This document shows positions 3,197-62,368 of a stretch of 64,000 bases of DNA, piece after piece. The translations under genes and the position numbers were made by a program. Location: positions 8,989 to 72,988 of the forward strand of contig SKJI01000007.1 of the NCBI GenBank assembly GCA_007115995.1, given 5' to 3'. Positions within the stretch are counted from its first letter, which is position 1, and each line of letters starts with the position of its first letter. The notes below the pieces were generated by a model. It did no database searches and was not told where the DNA came from. It saw only the letters and a list, made by a program, of their open reading frames with translations. Source of the stretch: a candidate division SR1 bacterium. Lineage in GTDB: Bacteria > Patescibacteriota > Gracilibacteria > Absconditabacterales > Absconditicoccaceae.

Positions 3197-3207
3197 GCTG
3201 TCATTAC

Positions 3208-3265
3208 AGTATATATTTTGCTTGATGATGCTAGATGAAATAGTGTGAATCGTGGCAAGAGTAGA
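3208..3265. repeat. Copy A of a ~58-nt conserved intergenic module, 12 nt upstream of the dus start
   Basis: agtatatattttgcttgatgatgctagatgaaatagtgtgaatcgtggcaagagtaga. About 85% identical to 5466-5524. Confidence 0.6.
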
Positions 3266-5354: not shown

Positions 5355-5465
5355 CACAATAAATAATTGGTTAAAGCGTGTAGAATGGACTGGAAAATGG
5401 TATTGGTGTGATATTTTCGAATAAGAAAGTTTTCTTTTATGAGGGCATCTTTTATTGCAATATAT

Positions 5466-5524
5466 AGTATATATTTTGCTTAATGATACTAGATGAAATG
5501 AGATGAAAACGTGGCAAGAGCAGA
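5466..5524. repeat. Copy B of the ~58-nt intergenic module, 112 nt upstream of the ABC-F start
   Basis: agtatatattttgcttaatgatactagatgaaatgagatgaaaacgtggcaagagcaga. Confidence 0.6.
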
Positions 5525-21383: not shown

Positions 21384-21407
21384 GTGAGATATGTATAGAA
21401 TAAATTA

Positions 21408-21436
21408 TTGACAAAAATGAATAATATATATAGTAT
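21408..21436 (+). promoter_or_regulatory. Sigma70-like promoter candidate (TTGACA-N17-TAGTAT) just after ileS
   Basis: ttgaca at 21408-21413, tagtat at 21431-21436. No CDS follows. Confidence 0.3.
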
Positions 21437-21581
21437 GTAATAAGTGATTCTTTACTTGCAATTGCTATTTTTATTGTTTATAAATGAAATCCTACCATAC
21501 TTAGCTTCAGTTAAGTATTCATTGAGTTAGATTTATTTGTTCGTTAAGATGTTTTATAATGATAAAACATCTTAAAAAGAA

Positions 21582-21612
21582 AGGGTGTTCTGTTATTACA
21601 GACACTCTTTTT
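21582..21612 (+). terminator. Intrinsic terminator candidate
   Basis: Stem agggtgttctg / cagacactct (10 bp, one bulge, one G-U), loop ttatta, then ttttt. Confidence 0.4.
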
Positions 21613-21898
21613 CTATTTCTATAATACTCTGTAAACATCAAAAAACCCTTATAATAGCAATATCTTCATTTGAGAAGAGATGATTTACAGAGAGTAGTAG
21701 AGTAAATCCAAAAGTGAATCTTTAGTATATTTATTTTATTTTTGTATAAAACTACATAATTATTACTTTGAATAAGTAACGTATCTAAACATTGTATCTA
21801 ATTGACTATAATATTGATAGATTACTTTTCACTTGCAAATTGGTGTATAATCTTTTATATTAATACTGCCTAGTCGTATTGACTGGGTATAGTGCTTG

Positions 21899-21933
21899 GG
21901 GTCGCTAAAGTATTTTATAGTGACCCTTTTTTT
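21899..21933 (+). terminator. Intrinsic terminator candidate
   Basis: 9-bp stem gggtcgcta / tagtgaccc (one G-U), 10-nt loop, then seven T. About 75 nt downstream of a perfect TATAAT at 21846-21851. Confidence 0.55.
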
Positions 21934-22015
21934 ATTGAAGAAAGTACTCCTATATCCAAGTACTAAAACTTTTCTGATGTATTGAGAAAGCCTTATATAT
22001 GTATATTCATTTATT

Positions 22016-29418: not shown

Positions 29419-30906
29419 TTACTGACCAGGAATACTTGTAGAATCTGCGTAAGATACGTTTAAATTTGGGTTACTTAATTTCAATCATTGTTCTAAATCT
29501 TTCATAGTATGTCATAGTTCTACTTTTTTTAAGGTGGGTAGACTTGAAATCAACTTAGAAACTTGAGACTGATATGCATTTTCTTGTAATCAAGGAATTC
29601 ATTGATTTCATAATAATAAAATTCTAAGTTTATTATTCTTTATAAGCTGTCATACCTGTGAGATATTATTTTTTCTTAAATCAATTTCTTCCAAGCTCGA
29701 AAGAGAAGAGAGTCCAGAAATATCGGTTATATTATTGTTTGCTAATCAAACTAATTTCAAATTAGAAACAGAAGAAAGAGCTGAAATGTTGTTAATATTG
29801 TTGTTTTCTAAATAAAGTACTGTTAAGTTCGAAATAAAAGAAAGATTTACTAAATCTTTATCTGTGATCTTATTATTGTTTAATGAAAGTAATCGTAAGT
29901 TAGAAAGTCAATTGAGAGGTGGGATATTTGTGATATTGTTGTTTTCTAACCAAAGCATCCTTAAGTTAGAAAGTCAAGAAAGCATAGAGATGTCATGAAT
30001 ATTATTGTTTTTTAACCAAAGTCTTTCCAAATTAGAAAGAGAAGAAAGAGCTGAAATATTGGTAATATTGTTATTTTCTAAATAAAGTGATTTTAGGTTA
30101 GAAAGAGAAGAAAGAGCTGAAATATCTTTTATTTTGTTATTATTTAGCCAAAGTCATTTTAAGTTCGAAAGAGAAGCAAGAGCAGAAATGTTGGTGATAT
30201 TGTTATTGTTTAATGCAAGTGATTCTAAATTAGAAAGAGAAGAAAGAACTGAAACATCTCTGATGTTACAATTCTCTAAATAAAGTGATTTTAAGTTCGA
30301 AAGTCAAGATATTGAAGAAATGTCTGTTGCTTCTTTAATTGATAATTCTGTAACTTTTTGCAGTTTTTCTATTGGGACTAGTAGCACAAACTTACCATCC
30401 TCAATAGTATAGTGAGTTCAATGAAGCATAATATTAATTTCTCATATTTTTTTAAGTCCTTTATCAAGCTCATTTTTGTGATTAATTGCAACTAGCATTT
30501 TTTCTAGCATAAATTTTCAAGCTATTCAATCTACTTTAAGTCATTTTTTTCTTTGTAGAGATTTAACTGCTTCTGCAGTTTTTTCTCATCGCATACCATT
30601 TAATGGTCATGGATTTTCTCCGAGAAATTTGAGTTTGATCTGTAATGCAAGAACATACGCCGCTCATCGTTTATTAACAGCATCTTGAAAAGGCATAATT
30701 TGCATATCAGCTAAACATCACTCAAGAATACGATTGGCAGCATTGAAAATGTCTTGTTGATTTTTACTCTCCAAGACACTTTTCAGTGAGTTAGTGTTTT
30801 GAACTTCTTCTTCTAAACTAGCAATATCAACTTTGAGTTCTTTGATGAGTTGTTCTTGCAGCCATTTCACTTCATCAATACGATTACTAAATTCTATATT
30901 GTTCAT
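29419..30906 (-). CDS. Leucine-rich-repeat (internalin-like, 22-aa repeats) protein with an N-terminal peptidoglycan-binding (PG_binding_1-like) domain
   Basis: (G)ENP(G)PLNGM[CGA](G)EKTAEAVKSLQRKK(G)LKVD(G)IA(G)KFM, then about 10 repeats of the type LSNLKSLYLENNNITNISALSS. 496 codons. Confidence 0.75.
29650..30335 (-). repeat. About ten tandem 66-nt units encoding the LRRs
   Basis: Recurrent ...ttagaaagagaagaaagagctgaaatatt..ataatattgtt... with 66-nt period, in frame with the LRR CDS. Confidence 0.8.
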
Positions 30907-31885: not shown

Positions 31886-32161
31886 TTATTTTTTTTGTAA
31901 CTGTAATAAGGTGTTTAGTTGTTCCAAGATTTTTGGATGAACATGATGTCAGGGTAAGAGAATATTATAGACAAAACTTTCTAGAGTTTTAACCCTAAGA
32001 CTATCAAATGATTTAGCTATCGATGTAGTGAGTTGCGCAATATCAGAACAACATGCATCATGAGTAATATAGCGTTCAAGTGTTTGTATTTGTCATTGAA
32101 TGCGACGCAGATGATTGAGTGTTTTTTTTCTTCTTGCTTGAATGTCTGGTGTGATTTTCAT
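31886..32161 (-). CDS. CsoR/RcnR/FrmR-family (DUF156) transcriptional repressor
   Basis: KKTLNHLRRIQ(G)QIQTLERYITHDACCSDIAQLTTSIAKSFDSL. 91 aa. Confidence 0.75.
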
Positions 32162-32196: not shown

Positions 32197-32216
32197 ATAT
32201 ACCCTCACCCCTATAT
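32197..32216. promoter_or_regulatory. Candidate CsoR-family operator: C-tract flanked by AT-rich inverted arms
   Basis: atataCCCTCACCCCtatat, 36 nt upstream of the csoR ATG. Confidence 0.3.
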
Positions 32217-32255
32217 TATTCAAAAGAGAAAAGTATGCAACTATTTTTAGACTTT

Positions 32256-32411
32256 AGGAACCTCTGAAAAATTACTTTTTAAACGATTATATACAATAAT
32301 TAAGTATCGCAGTATTTACTCGATTATATGTAAAAGAGAGGTTCCTTGAGGAAGGTCCTCATGCGGGAAAAATTTCATTTCATAAAATTTTCTTCCTTTT
32401 TCAGACCTTCC
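32256..32411 (+). repeat. Copy 1 of a ~156-nt conserved structured intergenic element (candidate ncRNA/leader)
   Basis: aggaacctct (32256-65) pairs with agaggttcct (32337-46). ggaaggtc (32350-57) pairs with gaccttcc (32404-11). About 85% identical to 41938-42093. Confidence 0.6.
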
Positions 32412-32510
32412 TTTATTTTACAGCTCCCTATTCGTTGTCTTAAACCCCAGCTTGAAAATACTCTATGAACCAGTACAATAGTCCCACTTTTATAGGTTAT
32501 CATATTGGAT

Positions 32511-33914
32511 ATGACGCATCAAACACAAGAAGATATCGCATTGCGTAAGGCACTTGATAGTGCAGATGATTTTAGGTACAGTCATCAGATCAGCGGACTC
32601 AATGAAGAAACAGTGAGAGCTATCTCTGCACACCTCAACGAGCCACAACGAATGTTGGAACATAGGTTACGTTCATTGGAGTTATTTCTTTCTATGCCTA
32701 TGCCATCATGGTGACCAGATTTATCAAGTATCAACTTTGATGAGTTAGTCTATTATGCATCACCAGAGCAGTCTGAGATCCAGCAAGATTGGGACAAGGT
32801 CGATCCGCTCATTAAGGAGAAATTTGCGAGATTATGAATTCCAGAAGCTGAACAGCGTTATCTTGCATGAGCATGATGACAGATGGACTCTGAGGTTGTC
32901 TATCACAAGATCAAAGAGAAGCGAGCAGAGCAGTGAGTTATTTTTGAGGATATGTCAGAAGCGTTGATTCACCACGAGGAGTTGGTCAAAAAATACTTTA
33001 TGAAGCTGATTCCAGCCAACGATCATAAATTTATGGCATTGCATGGAGCAGTATGGAGTGGAGGGACGTTTATTTATGTCCCCCAATGAGTACAGGTCAA
33101 CGAACCGTTGCAAGCATATTTTCGTATGAACTCGTTGAGTGGTGGACAGTTTGAACATACGTTGATTATTGTGGATGATGATGCGCAGTGTGATTATATA
33201 GAATGATGTAGCGCACCTAAATTTAACACTAGATCATTGCATGCATGAGGTGTGGAAGTATATGTCTGAAAGAGAGCGAAAATGCGTTACTCATCGGTAG
33301 AAAATTGGTCGATCAACACCTACAATCTCAATACAAAACGTGGTATCGTAGAAGACGATGGATTCCTCGAACGAGTCAACTGAAATCTAGGATCTGGCGT
33401 TACGATGTTATATCCATGTAGTATTTTGAAATGAGACAGATCTCGCTCAGATCAGCTTGGTGTTGCTGTGGCAGCGAAATGACAAAACCAAGATACAGGA
33501 TCCAAAGTTATTCATATTTGAAAAGATACAGCATCGACCATCGTTTCTAAATCGATCTCAAAAGATTGATGAATTGCAACATACAGAGGAATTGTCGATA
33601 TTAAAAAATCAGCGCAGTGAGCAATCAACTGAACTGAATGTGACGCATTACTGATGGATGATCAATCTATCAGTACAACGATACCTCATATTCACGTCGG
33701 GAATGACTCCTCAACAGTCGCTCACGAAGCAAGTGCATGAAAGGTAGACGACACAATGCTCTTTTACCTTATGTCTCGTGGCTTGAGTGAAGAAAAAGCA
33801 ATGACTATGGTCGTCAATGGCTTTATCTCAGATGTCGTCAAAAAACTACCCCTAGAATACGCATGAGAACTTAATCGTCTGATTGAGATGGAAATGGAAT
33901 GATCAGTAGGATAG
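32511..33914 (+). CDS. sufB: Fe-S cluster assembly protein SufB
   Basis: NEPQ[CGA]MLEHRL, PMPSW(G)[17 protein letters not shown](G)V, QAYFRMN, YIE(G)CSAP, VENWS, LE[CGA]VN(G)NLGS, HEASA(G)[18 protein letters not shown](G)ELNRLI. An alternative TTG start lies at 32505. Confidence 0.92.
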
Positions 33915-41890: not shown

Positions 41891-41937
41891 ACTATGCAAT
41901 GACATATTGAAAATATCTATGATTGACAGAAAGTATA

Positions 41938-42093
41938 AGGCATCTCTGAAAAATTACTTTTAAAACGACTATATACAATAATTATGTATCATTCTATTTA
42001 TAGGATTGTATGTAATATAGAGGTTCCTTGAGGAAGGTTTTCATGTAGGAAAAATTTTATTTCATTAAATTTTATCCTTTTTTCATACCTTCC
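41938..42093 (+). repeat. Copy 2 of the ~156-nt structured intergenic element
   Basis: aggcatctct / agaggttcct and ggaaggt / accttcc arms. Collinear with copy 1. Confidence 0.6.
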
Positions 42094-42151
42094 ATAAGAT
42101 TAGAATATATAAGCTTTAATAAAACATATTTACATAGTACTAATAAAAAAT

Positions 42152-42679
42152 ATGGAGAGTTTTTGGGATGATTTAAAACGAAATAAAGAAAACGTTGTAC
42201 AAGAGTTTTGAGACACAATAGAGTTACTGTGAGAAGTTTTTTGAAAAGACAAGTACTTATGCTTGCCTTGGTATCAAAAAATGAATACAATGCAATGCAA
42301 TATTGTAGACCTTTTTGATAAAAAAGAATATGAGAATAAAAATCTACGATATGACATAAAATATTTTCAGTGTTGTATAAGTGATTTTGTTCTCTTTCAT
42401 GAAAAATTTGTTCATAATATTAATATTTTCAATGATATTTTAAGTAAAAATGCAAAAGAAGACTGAATATATGATATAAACCGTCAAGCAGTATTTGACA
42501 TACTTTTACAGATATGTAAGGATGAGATAGTTTTAGATAATTGAAAAATCGATAAGATTGAATCTTTAATAGATGACGCTTTAGAGTTCTGATTAATTAA
42601 GAAGCAACAAATTAAAGAAGTAGCAAGACATGATTTGCTTGTTGCTATTGAATGTGATGAAATCTTATCTGAATATTAA
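42152..42679 (+). CDS. Hypothetical protein (175 aa)
   Basis: ATG 42152, TAA 42677-42679. Includes track ORF 42263... No homology recognised. Confidence 0.4.
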
Positions 42680-45172: not shown

Positions 45173-45201
45173 TTGACAAATAAAGTATTGACGTGTATAC
45201 T
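45173..45201 (+). promoter_or_regulatory. Strong sigma70-like promoter candidate (TTGACA-N17-TATACT)
   Basis: ttgaca 45173-45178 and tatact 45196-45201, 34 nt before ATG 45235. Confidence 0.45.
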
Positions 45202-45234
45202 ATAGATAAGTTGTTCTTTTACTCAAGACATCAC

Positions 45235-48200
45235 ATGGTTGATACGATACGATGCAAAAATCAAATATGACTACTTCATCAGCAATATCCTTGATTGATC
45301 AATAGTTTTTCTCGTTTTACACAACAAGCATGGTGAGACTATAAGGAGTTTTGTTTGCATGATTTTTGATCGACTGTTGCGATTAGAACGTTTTTGTTAA
45401 ATCCTTGAGATTTTCAATTTGTGGCAACAAATCATCTATGAGAGCATGGGTCATGAGAACATGGAGCTGCTGATGAGCACTCAGTTGAGGGTGAAGAAGG
45501 GACTGTAATACTACAAGAATCGTCATGATCATTTAATGATTTTTGGGATTGACTGTGAGATAATATGTGATCATTTTTTTCTTTTGCCTTATGGTTTATT
45601 CTCTGAGCGATTATTACTATTTCATTATTTAAAGCTATCAAATACTTTTTGGTTTTGATGTATGATGTCTTTAATGCAAAGAGAATTGAATACTTCAAAG
45701 TAATCCAACCTAGATGAGACTCGAAACTTGATCGTGAAGTCCAAAGAGAACTTGCAAAAGATATGAAAGAAAAGATTTCCAGAATGGCTCAAGTCTATGC
45801 AAATGTTCATAAATTATGAGAATTGAGTGTTGTTGATGGTATTTTGAGGAGATTATTTAAAAAGCCCAAAATTACTTTTTTGTTACACTATGAAAAATGA
45901 AAAATAGAGTTTATCATCGGGACATATCCAGAATATAGAAAAATTGTAGAATCAGCGATAGCAGCGCAGTATTCAGATTCTTCATTACAAACGATTGAAA
46001 AACCTCATTTCTTCTCTCATCAATATAGCGATCTCATGCCACTTCAACCAATAAAAGAGTGAGTCTATCCAATTAGAATGTTTAGACAAATGGAAGATGA
46101 CCCGATTAATAATATTATCGATTCGATGGCCAAAATTCCTCAATCTGACACCTTTACAATGATGTTAACGGTAAGACCTGAAAGATGAGCTTTTAATCAA
46201 AGAGCACAAAAATTTGCAGATGCACTGTATAGAAAGGATGATTCTGTAACAAAATGAACAAGATTTTTTCAGTATTTGCTACCTTGGAACTTATTGAAAT
46301 TTCTCACAAGATGACCAAGTGAGGAGTTGGTACAAAGATTTACTGGTGACAAGACACGTTGAGATCCTATGATTCGTATGGTCAAGGCAGAAGAAGAAGC
46401 ACTCAATAATATGGCAGAAGAAGCTGGTAAGAAAGCATTTTATTCATGACTGATGCTTTTATCGAGTTCGCCACAACCAAAAAAAGCAAGAGAAAATATT
46501 TATAATTTGGTCAGTGCGTTTACTGTGTATAGTGATGAGTACAATAATGCATTAGATCAGCCAGAAGTGCTGTCTGATATTTTTGGCGTGATTGTGAAAC
46601 CATTATGGAGAGCAAGTATTACGTTTTTGATTCCGTGATTTTTTTATAAGAAAAACGTTTTTTCTGTGAGTGAACTTGCATCATTATTCCATCTCCCTGA
46701 TGGGATGTACAATCGTTCACCGGCAATTTCTTGGATGGATTACAAAATGCTAGCACCACCTGATAACTTACCGCTGCTCAAAGAAGAAAATCCTGATTTC
46801 TTTATGACATGAATTATTGCTGAATCGTACAAATGATGAAATATTTCCAAGATTTTATCTGACAAAATTCATCCAGCAGTGTGAATCAAAGAGGAAATAC
46901 ACGAAGAGAAAATTCCAGTCGATGCATCGTACGTCTTACAAGAGTGAGAAGAGTTGCGTGAGGAGGATGACTCGCTTTATGTGATACGCAAAACAACAAC
47001 AAAAAAAGCAGCACTCAAGATCTACAATGATTGAATCTTGTTATGATTGAACGTGTATAGGAATAAGTTTTCTCCGGTCTATATGAAGCAAAAAGATAGA
47101 ACGAGACATCACTATATTATTTGAAAATCGGGTACGTGAAAATCGGTCTTTATCGCTGCGCTTGCAAGACAGGATATCTGGGCAAATGCATGAGTCTGCG
47201 TTGTTGATCCGCATGGTGATTTGGTAGAGGGAATTTTGGAGTATGTACCAAAACATAGAGCAAAGGATGTGATATATTTCGATGCAGGAAATGCTGAGCG
47301 TCCAATGTGACTCAATCTGTATCAAGTAAAATCGTTTAATGAGGCAGATAGAGTCGTCAACGATGCTGTTGAAATTTTCATCAAGATGTTTGGTCCAGAG
47401 ATTTTTGGTCCGCGTATCCAAGAATATTTTAAGTATGGAAGTTTGACGTTGTTGGAGGATATGGAAGATAGAGCGACACTGATCGATGTGCCAAGGTTGT
47501 TTACTGATGAGTGATATAGAGAGTACAAAATTGCAAAAGTAAAAAATCCAGTGGTCAGAAACTTTTGGGACAAAACATATAACGCAATGGGTGATCGTGA
47601 GAAACAAGAAATTATTCCATATTTTACTTCGAAATTTGTCTCGTTTACCACAAACTGACTGATTAGAAACATTATCGGACAAACTGAATCAGCATTCAAT
47701 TTTAGGGATGTAATGGATAACTGAAAAATCTTATTGATTAACTTAAGTAAAGGTATGATTTGAGAGCTGAATGCACAGTTGTTATGAATGATTATCGTGT
47801 CCAAAGTGTATAATGCTGCTATGGGAAGAGCAGATATGGCAGAAAAAGATCGTAGATTCTTTTACTTATATGTGGATGAGTTCCAAAACTTTGTAACTGA
47901 TACGTTTGCAGATATTTTATCTGAAGCAAGAAAGTATAAGCTTTGTTTGATTATGGCACATCAGTATATTGCACAGCTTGATTGATCAGCATGAAACAAT
48001 ATCTGAGAGTGAAAGAGTAAAGTGAAGGATGCGGTATTTGGTAACGTTTGAACGATGCAATCATTTAAAGTCGGTGCCCCAGATGCAGAGTTTTTGGAAA
48101 AGGAATATGCTCCTGTGTTGAGTGCGCAAGATATTTTGTGAATTGCAAACTACAAAGCATATATAAAACTGAATATCAACAATACTACCTCAAGAGTATT

Positions 48201-48441
48201 TAGTCTCAATGCATTATGGACGCAGGATTATAAAAATGAAAGAGTTGCAGAGATTCTAAAACAATACTCAGAAAAGAAATACGGACGTAAGAGAGAGTTT
48301 GTCGATGCAGAAATTGCAGCCAGGTTGTGAATACTTGGTGATAATCATGAAATTCCCTGAGTAGATGACTTACAGCTTGAAAGTGATACTGCATGAGACA
48401 CAGAATCAGAGTCTGATTGAGATGAGAATCAATCAGAATAA
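45235..48441 (+). CDS. Large VirD4/TraD-type (type IV coupling protein-like) P-loop ATPase, paralog 1 (1068 aa)
   Basis: TM segment FFLLPYGLFL(G)AIITISLF, Walker A HHYII(G)KS(G)T(G)KSVF, VVDPHGDL, LLINLSK(G).., FFYLYVDEFQNFVTDTFADILSEARKYKLCLIMAHQYIAQL. Checked codon by codon over 46081-47160. An alternative later start (Met near 45565) is possible. Confidence 0.75.
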
Positions 48442-48477: not shown

Positions 48478-48735
48478 ATGTCAATCAATACATTATGAAA
48501 TTATTTAGATGATTGAGAACCAAGAAATCCAGATCTCTATAGTGAAAGAGAAACACCAGAACAATGAAGTGAAAGAGAAACACCAGAACAATGAAGTGAA
48601 AGGGAAACACCAGAACAAGAAATGATAGAAGCTACTATAGCAGATGTTCAATGGGCATTAAGCAATCTAAAAGGTGAAATTCCTGGTTATGATCGTTATT
48701 GAAGGTTAGATAATATAGAATCACTTGATGCATAA
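48478..48735 (+). CDS. Small acidic protein with three SERETPEQ(G) repeats
   Basis: ATG 48478, TAA 48733-48735. Confidence 0.4.
48541..48621 (+). repeat. 27-nt tandem repeat, 3 units
   Basis: agtgaaagagaaacaccagaacaatga x2, then agtgaaagggaaacaccagaacaagaa. Confidence 0.9.
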
Positions 48736-56776: not shown

Positions 56777-57181
56777 GGCGAGGTGTTTATAAAGCATAAT
56801 AAATAATTAAAGTATTTTTAGAAATACCACGTAATTTATCTGAAGAGTACATTGTTATGCATCAAAATCCATCTTATATATTAAGATCTTAGATTTCTTA
56901 GATTTCTTAGTATTACAACTACTTTTACATGATTATAAAGAATGAATTGATAATGAATCAGATCAGACAAGAGATGAATAGTTTCAGTTCTTTAAGTATA
57001 TCTCATTAGGCTAATAATTTTTTATTTGTAAGATAATTTTTTTTGAAGGAGATATAGTTTTATAGATAATCAAGAGAATAGAGCGATACGTAATTGTTGA
57101 ATATGATTGTTATAATCTATTATTTGTAAGGTTTTATATAATTATTACCTAATAGCACATTGTCTTACTTTTTCAAAAACC

Positions 57182-59723: not shown

Positions 59724-59899
59724 TTCAGACTGTAAAGCATTTATCATAAAAAATGAGTAGTCAACTATTTTTTTCTAGAAAATACACTTGTAAATTATAC
59801 TCTGAATGAAGAGATTACTAATTTTGCTCTTTGCACTGTTTTCAGTATACTAAGAGTACTGATAATAGAATAATTTTTATTTGTAGTGAAGTTTGCTTG

Positions 59900-62368
59900 A
59901 TGATATTATCAATTGCTGAGCGTTTATGATGAGTACTTGCATCGATCTTTGGTACAAAGCAATCACAGAATAATTCTATATGTTTTGAAATTATCCCATA
60001 CAAAGAAAATGAGTTTGGGCAAGCACATTGGTGATCATTCCTTGCAAATTTTTCTAGTTTTCAGGAACATCTCTATTTTTCAATCGAATGAAACACGAAG
60101 CAGATCAAACTCTTTATGTATGCGCCAGAAAGCTATCAAGAATACATAAGAAATATTTTTTATGCAACATTTCCTACCAGTGATATAAAAATTCACCCAC
60201 AAAAATCACTCAAAAAACACCCATCTAATCTTAAATTTTCTCATGACAGTGTGTTTTATGAAACACATGAATTTATGAAATGATGAGAATATGTTGATCC
60301 ATTCAAAGATGTTCTTTCGCTTTTTTGATCAATTCCTCAAGAATGAACACTTTCGTTACTATATAGTTGTCAATTTAAGGTAAAAAAGACTTTTTTTCAA
60401 AAATGTTTAGCGTTGCGAAAGAAATTTTTTAGTAACGATAAAAGTGAAAAAAACACAAATGATAAAGAAGAAGTAAGTCAACAAGAAAATGTAAAAAAAG
60501 TTTGAAAAGATGTAATATTTGCTTTACAGTATTTTTTACATTTAGATCCGCAATGATATATAAATAAAGTAAATACAGACATTAATCATGTTTTTGATAA
60601 ATTTTTACAACAAGGAACAGTAAAGCCATCACAGTCTATTCATTGGGTGAGTACTAACTTAGATGCATTTATCAATCTCTTTCATATCCCAACTAAATCA
60701 TTCTTAAACAATACTTTACATTATATTCCATATCGTAAGTTAGAACATCCTGTTAATTTGCCAATGTTATCAAATACATCAAGTGATGATCTAACTATTT
60801 TATGAAAAACAGAATACAAAAACCAATGAATTGAGTTTGGTATCAAAACAGAAGATAAGTTTAGACATGTATATATTGTGTGAAAAACGTGAATGTGAAA
60901 ATCTACATTCATTTCAAATATGGTGAGAAGTGATATGCAGACTAATCATTGATTAGCAGTGATTGATCCTCATGGCGATCTTATTGATGATGTATTAGTA
61001 CATATTCCATCTCATCGTATCAATGATGTTGTGGTTTTTGATGTGAGTGATACTGCATATCCTGTCTGATTTAATATTTTGGAATTTAATACTCCTGAAG
61101 AAAAAACGCTCGTAGCATCTGCTGTTGTTTCAATCTTCAAAAAACTCTTTGCGCACAGTCGATGACCAAGATTAGAGTACATCCTCAGAAACGTTATGTT
61201 GTCTGTGCTTGACTATCCAAATACAACATTGATGCATGTGATGCGTATGCTCAACGACAAAAAATTTAGAGAAGAAGTATTGACACACGTATCTGATCCA
61301 GTTGTGATGAAATTTTGGAGAGATGAGTATGACAAACGACAACCAAGACAAGTTCAAGAGGCAGTCTGACCGATCGCAAACAAAATTTGACAGTTTTTAT
61401 CATCTCCAGTTGTGAGGAATATTTTTGCTCAGCCCAAGAGTAGTTTGCAGTTAAGAAAAATTATGGATGAAGGGAAAATATTGCTTATTAATCTTTCTAA
61501 ATGAAAGATATGAGAAGATAATGCGAGTATGCTGTGATCTTTTCTTGTCTCTAAATTCCAAATTGATGCTATGTCTAGAGCTGATGTAGATTATAATATG
61601 AGAAAAGATTTTTATTTGTATATTGATGAGTTTCAAAACTTTGCAACTGACTCATTTGAAAGTATCTTATCAGAAGCAAGAAAGTATCGTTTATCATTGA
61701 TTGTTGCAAATCAGTATACTTCTCAAATTCAAGAAAATGTCAGAAATGCAATTTTTGGGAATGTCGGGACTATCGTGAGTTTTGGTCTGTGATATGATGA
61801 TGCAATGCTTATGTCTCAACAGTTCAAAGAGCTTATTTCTCCCAATGATTTACTTTCATTGCCTAAATTTAAAGCATATGTAAAGCTTATGGTTGATTGA
61901 GTTACTACTGACCCTTTTACTATGGGGACATTTCCTCTACCATTACCTGAATCATGACCAGAAATTAAAGAAAAAATTCTCAAACAGTCAAGACAGCGTT
62001 ATGCAACTGAAAGAGAAAAACTTGAGTCGCTCTTGCAAGCTCGAATGGAAAAGCAGTTTACAGAGTCAGAAAAAGTCATCGAGAAAGTGCAACAAGAAAC
62101 TCTCAAACAAGATGGTACAACATTTAGTATAGATGATTTAAAAGTATGAGAACGATATGACTGATATGTGAAGCTAAAATATAATTATTGATTATTTGTG
62201 ACTGTAAAAGGTGTAGAGTGATTATTACATAAATCGTTGGTTAAGGTGCCAGACACCTTATCATCATGGAAAGACTTGTATGTTATTTGAGATAAGATAT
62301 CTGTCAAGGTTGACTGATTCAAAGAAATTGAGTGAGAAAAGAAAATTGTTTGGACGCAAAAAGATTAG
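59900..62368 (+). CDS. VirD4/TraD-type coupling-protein-like P-loop ATPase, paralog 2, with a C-terminal S1 RNA-binding domain (822 aa)
   Basis: Walker A HVYIV(G)KT(G)M(G)KSTF, VIDPHGDL, LLINLSK(G)KI(G), FYLYIDEFQNFATDSFESILSEARKYRLSLIVANQYTSQ. Tail V(G)E[CGA]YD(G)YVKLKYNY(G)LFVTVKGVE(G)LLHKSLV...V(I)(G)DKISVKVD. Codon-checked over 59939-60900. Confidence 0.75.

What the first reader, a model, noticed from the sequence alone, without database searches (positions are those of the whole stretch)
32256..32411. Conserved ~156-nt intergenic element with nested long-range inverted repeats (copy 1, upstream of sufB)
The segments 32256-32411 and 41938-42093 are collinear and about 85% identical, with no conserved ORF. 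Copy 1 has an ATG-initiated ORF where copy 2 reads ATG-TAG. Each copy carries a 10-bp outer inverted repeat (aggaacctct ... agaggttcct) enclosing about 70 nt. This is followed by a second inverted repeat (ggaaggtc ... gaccttcc) enclosing about 46 nt. Both copies lie in the same orientation, 60-100 nt upstream of a plus-strand gene (sufB and a hypothetical). This looks like a structured RNA (leader, sRNA or riboregulator) or a miniature repeat element, and I cannot assign it to a known family.
Basis: seen in the sequence. Interest (0 to 1): 0.65.

Follow-up and report, generated by a model that had tools for sequence, protein, structure and literature searches.

The report
Small IS5-like mobile DNA repeat
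The two conserved 155-base intergenic segments are most likely copies of a small non-coding "jumping" DNA element (a MITE) with inverted-repeat ends and 4-base target duplications, not a regulatory RNA; this is a known kind of element, not reported for this bacterial group in the literature I searched.

Summary
Window 32256-32411 and 41938-42093 are collinear, gap-free and 84% identical (blastn E 1e-44), and both nested inverted repeats are present. (1) The two outer ends are inverted repeats of each other: GGAACCTCTGAAAAA versus the reverse complement of the other end, GGAAGGTCTGAAAAA (13/15 in copy 1, 11/15 in copy 2). (2) With boundaries GG...CC, each copy is flanked by a perfect 4-bp direct repeat that differs between copies: TTTA|copy 1|TTTA and ATAA|copy 2|ATAA. 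Outside these repeats, identity falls to 27%. [quoted passage not shown] Its ends and duplication length mirror E. coli IS5 (GGAAGGTGCGAATAAG, 4-bp duplications; right end 13/16 identical). The nested repeats are best read as the end pairs of two sub-elements (89 nt and 62 nt) joined by a 4-bp spacer, TTGA. There is no Rfam match. The element is not conserved upstream of sufB in relatives, and there is no significant covariation. No transposase, further intact copy or empty site could be found with the accessible data. Verdict: new member of a known kind, low to moderate interest.

The parts
32253..32256 (.). Left target-site duplication of copy 1 (TTTA)
   Evidence: Read directly. It is identical to 32412-32415. 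The scan for GGAA..TC...GA..TTCC pairs with 4-nt flanking repeats recovers this pair as the only one in the window.
32257..32411 (+). Copy 1 of the 155-nt element (GG...CC boundaries)
   Evidence: 84% identical to copy 2. The 40-nt flanks beyond the duplications are only 11/40 identical on each side.
32257..32271 (+). Left terminal inverted repeat of copy 1, GGAACCTCTGAAAAA
   Evidence: 0 mismatches to the pattern GGAASSTCTGAAAAA. It matches the reverse complement of the right end at 13/15.
32397..32411 (-). Right terminal inverted repeat of copy 1, GGAAGGTCTGAAAAA on the minus strand
   Evidence: 0 mismatches. Extended by one base (32396-32411), it is 13/16 identical to the E. coli IS5 terminal repeat GGAAGGTGCGAATAAG.
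32257..32345 (+). Sub-unit 1 (89 nt), with its own perfect end pair GGAACCTCT / AGAGGTTCC.
32346..32349 (.). 4-bp spacer TTGA between the two sub-units. It has the same length as the target duplications and is identical in both copies.
32350..32411 (+). Sub-unit 2 (62 nt), with its own end pair GGAAGGTC / GACCTTCC.
32412..32415 (.). Right target-site duplication of copy 1 (TTTA)
41935..41938 (.). Left target-site duplication of copy 2 (ATAA)
   Evidence: The combined test (4-nt duplication plus ends matching at >=10/15 at 155-nt spacing) picks 41939 as one of only 3 positions in the window.
41939..42093 (+). Copy 2 of the element: sub-unit 1 at 41939-42027, spacer TTGA at 42028-42031, sub-unit 2 at 42032-42093. 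The terminal repeats are GGCATCTCTGAAAAA and GGAAGGTATGAAAAA (2 and 1 mismatches to the pattern).
42094..42097 (.). Right target-site duplication of copy 2 (ATAA)
57059..57112 (-). Degenerate partial copy (relic). It is homologous to the interior of sub-unit 1 (element positions ~27-80, 78% identity). Its ends are no longer recognisable.
   Evidence: blastn E 3.4e-7; nhmmer E 5e-4; alignment.

Best explanation
[quoted passage not shown] It carries no gene. It is moved in trans by a DDE-type transposase that recognises its inverted-repeat termini (consensus GGAA-SS-TCTGAAAAA). That enzyme makes cuts staggered by 4 bp in an A/T-rich target, which leaves a 4-bp direct repeat on each side (TTTA at the sufB site, ATAA at the second site). 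The termini and the duplication length point to an IS5-family (IS5-group-like) transposase. The element looks like a composite of two small hairpin-forming units, each with its own perfect end pair, set end to end and separated by 4 bp (TTGA). The composite now moves using its two outermost ends. This explains the 'nested long-range inverted repeats'. Its position upstream of sufB and of an orphan gene is then a consequence of insertion into tolerant intergenic DNA, not of a regulatory role. Shown here: the repeat itself, the terminal inverted repeats, the target duplications, the sharp homology boundaries, absence from relatives, and the lack of coding or Rfam signal. Inferred: mobilisation by a transposase, the IS5-family affiliation, and the composite origin.
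For: (1) Terminal inverted repeats match at 13/15 (copy 1) and 11/15 (copy 2). Among all 155-nt frames in the window, P(>=13/15) = 3e-5 and P(>=11/15) = 2.7e-4. The pattern GGAASSTCTGAAAAA at <=2 mismatches finds the four termini; its two other 2-mismatch hits lie inside genes. (2) Perfect 4-bp flanking direct repeats differ between the copies (TTTA/TTTA, ATAA/ATAA). The chance of one is 0.0076 in this window, and of both about 6e-5. Only 3 of about 63,800 positions combine a 4-bp duplication with ends matching at >=10/15; two of them are these copies. (3) Identity is 84% inside the element and 11/40 in each flank. (4) E. coli K-12 IS5 control: TTAG|GGAAGGTGCGAATAAG...CTTGTTCGCACCTTCC|TTAG, and likewise TTAA and TTAG at two other copies. 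The boundaries are the same GG...CC, the duplication is the same 4 bp, and the element's right end is 13/16 identical to the IS5 repeat. (5) No ORF is conserved between the copies. (6) The element is lineage-restricted. It was not found in about 83 kb from five related Absconditabacteria loci whose SufB is 82-85% identical. Upstream of sufB there are only 71 nt in L013 and 6 nt in L042. (7) A decayed third copy exists, as expected for a repeat family that turns over. (8) The 25 differences between the copies are spread evenly: 13/93 in paired and 13/64 in unpaired positions (Fisher p = 0.38). The longest identical run (20 nt) equals the random expectation of 20.6. This fits neutral decay. (9) The internal spacer between abutted ends is 4 bp, the same as the duplication length. 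That is what tandem insertion of two units at one target would leave.
Against: There are only two intact copies and one relic in the 73 kb of the 79-kb contig that I could read. No transposase gene appears among the gene calls and Pfam hits I saw (L009, L043 and L045 tables). Not every window protein was scanned. No empty site or presence/absence polymorphism could be shown, because the other assemblies that carry these loci are 100% identical to the window. The public-collection scans found no further copy, but they required an exact 19-mer or 17-18-mer. The targets TTTA and ATAA do not fit the YTAR preference I recall for IS5. I selected IS5 for comparison from memory, so the 13/16 match carries a look-elsewhere penalty, and the left end matches IS5 at only 10/16. 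Both copies have the same orientation relative to the downstream gene, and one pair in hairpin 2 changed in a compensatory way (G-C to A-U). A functional RNA would also predict both of these.
Confidence: 0.72

Rival explanations
1. It is a structured non-coding RNA, such as a cis-acting leader or riboregulator or a small RNA gene present in two paralogous copies. It would be transcribed from the + strand and would act through its two hairpin domains on the downstream genes (sufB and the 175-aa ORF).
For: Copy 1 folds well beyond its shuffles (z = -4.2). Both copies have the same orientation, 58-98 nt upstream of + strand genes. There is one compensatory pair (110-141, G-C to A-U) and one G-U to G-C change in hairpin 2. 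The stem-1 change C to U gives a G-U wobble only on the + strand.
Against: There is no Rfam family at gathering score, and the sub-threshold hits are generic hairpins (miRNA precursors at 21-25 bits against a gathering score of 76). Of the 10 predicted pairs that differ between copies, 7 are broken in copy 2, and paired positions are not better conserved than unpaired ones (p = 0.38). Copy 2 folds only marginally better than shuffles (z = -2.4). The minus strand of copy 1 folds even better (z = -5.4), as expected for DNA palindromes. The element is absent upstream of sufB in relatives. The only sigma70-like site upstream of sufB in the consensus scan lies downstream of the element, and that scan found no promoter-like or terminator-like site conserved inside it. 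This reading does not explain the terminal inverted repeats or the copy-specific 4-bp flanking repeats.
Confidence: 0.1
2. It is a MITE that has been co-opted. The inserted element now supplies a cis-regulatory function, such as a hairpin terminator or insulator between the divergent csoR-like gene and sufB, or a protein-binding palindrome (TTCCTTGAGGAA) shared by the two downstream genes.
For: Both copies have the same orientation upstream of genes. In copy 1, hairpin 2 is followed by TTTATTTT, which is terminator-like. Prokaryotic MITEs are known to affect neighbouring gene expression (review PMC10969869).
Against: The T-run in copy 1 is flank and target-duplication sequence, and copy 2 lacks it. 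No conserved promoter or terminator was detected. The substitution pattern looks neutral. With only two copies, shared orientation has a chance probability of about 0.5.
Confidence: 0.1
3. It is a plain segmental duplication of an intergenic regulatory region (promoter or operator) with no transposition. The two genes would share a duplicated upstream control region.
For: There are two copies only 9.7 kb apart, both upstream of genes.
Against: The homology ends abruptly at GG...CC, with copy-specific 4-bp direct repeats on both sides, and the ends are inverted repeats of each other. A recombinational duplication predicts neither feature. A third, decayed copy lies 15 kb away on the other strand, in a convergent gene-free stretch.
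Confidence: 0.05

Closest known systems
Prokaryotic MITEs (for example Correia/NEMIS of Neisseria, RUP of pneumococcus, ERIC, MITEAba12, QMITE of Coxiella; reviewed in PMC10969869)
   Same: Size of 100-200 bp, no coding capacity, terminal inverted repeats, short flanking direct repeats, intergenic location, strong hairpin potential, and lineage-restricted distribution with decayed copies.
   Different: The copy number seen here is very low (2 intact copies plus 1 relic in the 73 kb of the contig that I read). The host is a small, TGA-recoded Absconditabacteria-type genome, a group for which my literature searches found no MITE report. The internal architecture has two abutted hairpin units instead of one long terminal hairpin.
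IS5 of E. coli (IS5 family, IS5 group) and MITEs derived from IS5-family elements
   Same: The termini begin GGAAGGT, with the right end 13/16 identical to GGAAGGTGCGAATAAG. The element boundaries are GG...CC, and the target duplication is a 4-bp, A/T-rich T-A type. I verified this on three IS5 copies of E. coli K-12.
   Different: No IS5-family transposase was found in the accessible sequence. The left end matches at only 10/16. The targets TTTA and ATAA do not fit the YTAR preference I recall for IS5. The interior has no detectable similarity to IS5.
REP/BIME/REPIN elements and IS200/IS605-derived palindromic elements (PATEs)
   Same: Short intergenic repeats made of palindromic units, sometimes in pairs.
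   Different: By established knowledge, those elements are moved by HUH (Y1) transposases. They have no terminal inverted repeats in the transposon sense and make no target-site duplication. This element has both.
Cis-regulatory RNA leaders and small RNAs (Rfam families)
   Same: Intergenic location, two stable hairpin domains, and position upstream of genes.
   Different: No family match, no conservation at orthologous loci, no significant covariation, and the element is bounded by target duplications.

Membership tests
Prokaryotic MITE | Small (<~500 bp) with no transposase or other conserved ORF | tested here: met
   The element is 155 bp. The only ORFs are an ATG-ORF in copy 1 that reads ATG-TAG in copy 2, and a 37-aa ORF in copy 2 that has no start in copy 1.
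Prokaryotic MITE | Terminal inverted repeats | tested here: met
   13/15 in copy 1 and 11/15 in copy 2. Background P(>=13) = 3e-5 and P(>=11) = 2.7e-4 over all 155-nt frames of the window.
Prokaryotic MITE | Flanking direct repeats (target-site duplications) that differ between copies | tested here: met
   TTTA/TTTA and ATAA/ATAA. P = 0.0076 per site.
Prokaryotic MITE | Several dispersed copies in one genome | tested here: inconclusive
   Two intact copies and one relic lie in the window. There are none in the 9 kb further left on the contig.
Prokaryotic MITE | Evidence of mobility: empty sites or insertion polymorphism | not testable with these tools
   The other assemblies with these loci (L010, L011, L044, L046) are 100% identical to the window. 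The nearest other genomes (SufB 82-85% identical) are not syntenic at either site.
Prokaryotic MITE | Cognate autonomous IS with the same termini | tested here: inconclusive
   No transposase family appears among the Pfam hits for the genes examined (gene tables). No second pair of matching termini was found within 3 kb. Only 73 kb of the genome was seen.
IS5 family (IS5 group) derivative | Terminal repeats of the GGAAGGT... type | tested here: met
   The right ends are 13/16 (copy 1) and 12/16 (copy 2) identical to the IS5 repeat read from E. coli K-12. The left ends are 10/16 and 9/16.
IS5 family (IS5 group) derivative | 4-bp target-site duplication | tested here: met
   The duplication is 4 bp here. 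The control on three E. coli IS5 copies gives TTAG, TTAA and TTAG.
IS5 family (IS5 group) derivative | Target preference YTAR (from memory of the IS5 literature) | tested here: not met
   The targets are TTTA and ATAA, and the internal spacer is TTGA. All are A/T-rich with T at position 2 and A at position 4, but none is YTAR.
IS5 family (IS5 group) derivative | Mobilising DDE transposase of the IS5 family in the same genome | not testable with these tools
Rfam structured RNA, riboswitch or leader | Match to a curated covariance model | tested here: not met
   No hit at gathering score in the 64-kb window. The best sub-threshold hit is a miRNA precursor model at 24.8 bits against a gathering score of 76.
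Rfam structured RNA, riboswitch or leader | Conserved upstream of orthologous genes, with covariation supporting the stems | tested here: not met
   It is absent from five related sufB loci. Between the two copies there is 1 compensatory pair, 2 one-sided changes and 7 broken pairs.
REP/REPIN or IS200/IS605-derived palindromic element | No terminal inverted repeats and no target duplication; associated Y1 (HUH) transposase | tested here: not met
   Terminal inverted repeats and 4-bp duplications are present. No Y1 transposase appears among the genes seen.

The most novel reading that the evidence does not exclude
The element is an active or recently active MITE family in a TGA-recoded, reduced Absconditabacteria (CPR) genome that may lack its own transposase. 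That would imply mobilisation in trans by a transposase from another replicon, a phage or a co-resident organism. Alternatively, it is a MITE co-opted as a shared cis-regulatory module upstream of sufB and an orphan gene.
Probability: 0.12. Interest if true: 0.5.

Novelty: new member of a known kind. Interest (0 to 1): 0.27.

Why it matters
If this is correct, the finding removes a candidate 'new structured RNA' from the list and replaces it with a mobile-element annotation. It also documents a DDE-transposon-derived repeat in an Absconditabacteria-type genome. These are small, recoded genomes, and my literature searches found no report of MITEs in them. Practically, such repeats can mislead ncRNA discovery pipelines because they fold very stably. 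They also mark places where genome rearrangement or changes in neighbouring gene expression (here sufB, next to a CsoR-like regulator) could occur. The composite architecture, two units abutted with a spacer of target-duplication length, is a tidy example of how nested inverted repeats can arise from transposon ends rather than from RNA structure.

Tried and rejected
1. Exact-pattern scans of public collections. The 19-mer core AGAGGTTCCTTGAGGAAGG gave 8 hits in genome contigs, 21 in metagenome contigs and 4 in viral contigs. All were in unrelated taxa or coding sequence: one phage gene found identically in several samples, and a transposase-like ORF reading ...KRFLEEGYAGLEE... None extended beyond 26-28 nt. 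The 5' block, the two-ended terminal-repeat pattern and the 17-mer right end gave nothing relevant in viral contigs. These scans need exact matches, so diverged copies would be missed.

2. I looked for a coding explanation. One frame is partly conserved (…YRSIYSIICK… versus …YHSIYRIVCN…, with an AGT/TCT serine switch). It has no start codon in copy 1 and ends at different places, so I rejected it.

3. Empty-site comparison failed. L012 is not syntenic downstream of ftsZ. The 175-aa ORF downstream of copy 2 has no homologue at all. The other assemblies are the same strain.

4. I could fetch only part of the rest of the contig. The left 9 kb holds no copy and no transposase.

5. A contig break inside the element in a Logan assembly (L010 starts at element position 109) is not informative. 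The same assembly also breaks inside ftsZ.

6. The perfectly conserved central 20-mer is not special. Twenty-five random differences in 155 nt give a longest identical run of 20.6 on average.

7. A structural scan for GGAA..T...A..TTCC pairs with 4-bp duplications in the related loci gave one hit, which is at chance level.

Full report
**Context.** The window has 35% G+C. Under the standard bacterial code it has almost no long ORFs. If TGA is read as sense, ORFs of at least 100 aa (all frames, overlapping ORFs counted) sum to 1.48 times the window length, against 0.17 under the standard code. The sufB gene (32511-33914) has 21 in-frame TGA codons at positions where the code-25 translation gives the glycines conserved in SufB. 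Its best named relatives are Absconditabacteria/SR1 and Gracilibacteria. The window is part of a 79,455-bp metagenomic contig, ena:ERZ27301260:k141_586750.

- Segments 32256-32411 and 41938-42093 align without gaps at 84% identity (blastn E 1e-44).
- Both nested inverted repeats are present.
- Copy 1 folds far better than its shuffles on either strand (z = -4.2 on +, -5.4 on -). Copy 2 does so only marginally (z = -2.4, -1.5).
- Copy 1 lies in the 343-nt spacer between a divergent 91-aa CsoR/RcnR-like repressor gene (31886-32161, minus strand; PF02583) and sufB.
- Copy 2 lies in the 261-nt spacer between a 113-aa ORF and a 175-aa ORF that has no homologue among 5.8 billion proteins.

- The two outer ends of the element are inverted repeats of each other. 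The left end is GGAACCTCTGAAAAA and the reverse complement of the right end is GGAAGGTCTGAAAAA.
- They match at 13/15 in copy 1 and 11/15 in copy 2. Over all 155-nt frames in the window, 13/15 or better occurs with frequency 3e-5 and 11/15 or better with 2.7e-4.
- With boundaries GG...CC (32257-32411; 41939-42093), each copy is flanked by a perfect 4-bp direct repeat that differs between copies: TTTA|copy 1|TTTA and ATAA|copy 2|ATAA.
- A 4-nt match at that spacing has probability 0.0076 in this window, so both together have about 6e-5.
- Only three positions in the window combine a 4-bp flanking repeat with ends matching at 10/15 or better. Two of them are these copies.
- Inside the boundaries identity is 84%. 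In the 40 nt beyond the direct repeats it is 11/40 on each side, which is the random level.
- Terminal inverted repeats, copy-specific target-site duplications, sharp boundaries and no coding capacity define a MITE (features as listed in the review PMC10969869).

**Which transposase family.** I recalled that E. coli IS5 ends in GGAAGGTG and makes 4-bp duplications, and I checked this on annotated IS5 copies of E. coli K-12.
- Three copies read TTAG|GGAAGGTGCGAATAAG...CTTGTTCGCACCTTCC|TTAG, TTAA|...|TTAA and TTAG|...|TTAG.
- The element's right end, GGAAGGTCTGAAAAAG, is 13/16 identical to the IS5 repeat. The left end is 10/16 identical.
- The element has the same GG...CC boundaries and the same duplication length.
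- This is a resemblance, not proof of family membership. The comparison partner was chosen from memory. The targets (TTTA, ATAA) do not fit the YTAR preference I recall for IS5. No transposase was found.

**What the nested repeats are.** The left terminal repeat pairs perfectly with an internal AGAGGTTCC, and the right one with an internal GGAAGGTC. The two internal arms abut, separated by TTGA in both copies. So the element reads as unit 1 (89 nt, ends GGAACCTCT/AGAGGTTCC), then 4 bp, then unit 2 (62 nt, ends GGAAGGTC/GACCTTCC). Each unit has its own matched end pair (the 'CC' type and the 'GG' type). The spacer has exactly the length of a target duplication. That is what would remain if a second small element inserted at the duplicated target next to a first one. 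The composite then moved as a whole, because the outer duplications differ between copies while TTGA does not. This part is inference.

**Tests of the RNA reading.**
- Rfam gives nothing at gathering score across the window. Sub-threshold hits are generic hairpins only.
- Ten pairs of the copy 1 minimum-free-energy structure differ in copy 2. One changes on both sides (G-C to A-U), two change on one side, and seven are broken.
- Paired and unpaired positions diverge alike (13/93 versus 13/64; Fisher p = 0.38).
- The longest identical run (20 nt) is what random placement of 25 differences gives (mean 20.6).
- A leader for sufB should be conserved in relatives. I fetched sufB loci from five related genomes with SufB 82-85% identical. 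Upstream of sufB, L013 has a 71-nt spacer and L042 a 6-nt spacer. No locus (about 83 kb in all) has any match by blastn, nhmmer or terminal-repeat pattern.
- The only sigma70-like site upstream of sufB in a simple consensus scan (TTGAAA-16-TACAAT, 32452-32479) lies between the element and the gene. That scan finds no promoter-like or terminator-like site inside the element in both copies.

**Family size.** nhmmer with the two-copy profile finds one more, degenerate match at 57059-57112 on the minus strand. It covers only the interior of unit 1 (E 5e-4; blastn E 3e-7). It lies in a 405-nt stretch between convergent genes. The 9 kb of the contig to the left of the window has no copy. Exact-word scans of the genome, metagenome and viral collections returned only chance matches.

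**Limits.**
- I saw no transposase (gene tables), no empty site and no polymorphism.
- The other assemblies that carry these loci are the same strain, at 100% identity.
- Only 73 kb of this genome could be read.
- The MITE assignment therefore rests on structure: ends, duplications, boundaries and distribution. There is no direct demonstration of movement.

**Conclusion.** I put 0.72 on a non-autonomous DDE-transposon derivative. The IS5-like affiliation is a weaker sub-claim, at roughly even odds. I put about 0.1 on a genuine structured RNA, about 0.1 on a co-opted MITE with a cis-regulatory role, and 0.05 on a plain duplication. This is a new member of a known kind. Its main value is to prevent a false 'novel RNA' call and to record a mobile-element relic in a recoded CPR-type genome.

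Noticed in passing
window, whole; e.g. sufB 32511-33914: TGA is a sense codon. sufB has 21 in-frame TGA codons at conserved glycine positions, which indicates genetic code 25. The public protein collection translated them as W (code 4).
   Followed up: yes
window 31886-32161 (-) and 32197-32216: A 91-aa CsoR/RcnR-family metal-sensing repressor gene (PF02583) lies divergent from sufB. Between it and the element is ATATACCCTCACCCCTATAT, a C-tract flanked by an A/T inverted repeat. From memory this resembles operators of that family. It is a possible metal-responsive control of the regulator gene and/or sufB.
   Followed up: partly
window 3205-3262 and 5463-5520: A second intergenic repeat of about 60 nt, with a core of 37 nt at 92% identity. 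It lies just upstream of two minus-strand genes (a Dus-family gene and an ABC-F ATPase gene). It may be a shared promoter or operator.
   Followed up: partly
window 21384-22015: A 632-nt gene-free stretch, the largest in the window, with several hairpin-plus-T-run motifs. It has no Rfam or tRNA hit.
   Followed up: no
window 42152-42679: The 175-aa ORF downstream of copy 2 has no homologue other than itself in the 5.8-billion-protein collection, and no Pfam domain. It is an orphan gene.
   Followed up: partly
window 29655-30320 and 48529-48618: Tandem 66-nt repeats lie inside the leucine-rich-repeat protein gene 29419-30906 (-). 27-nt tandem repeats lie inside an 85-aa ORF and encode ...SERETPEQG... 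units.
   Followed up: no
window 47860-47975 and 61610-61725: A 116-nt stretch at 77% identity is shared by two large genes (45193-48441 and 59831-62368). Both encode P-loop proteins with similar ...DEFQNF... and ...ARKY...L... motifs, so they are probably paralogues.
   Followed up: no
window 56777-57181: A 405-nt stretch between convergent genes holds the decayed partial copy of the element (57059-57112, minus strand). The rest of this spacer is unexplained.
   Followed up: partly
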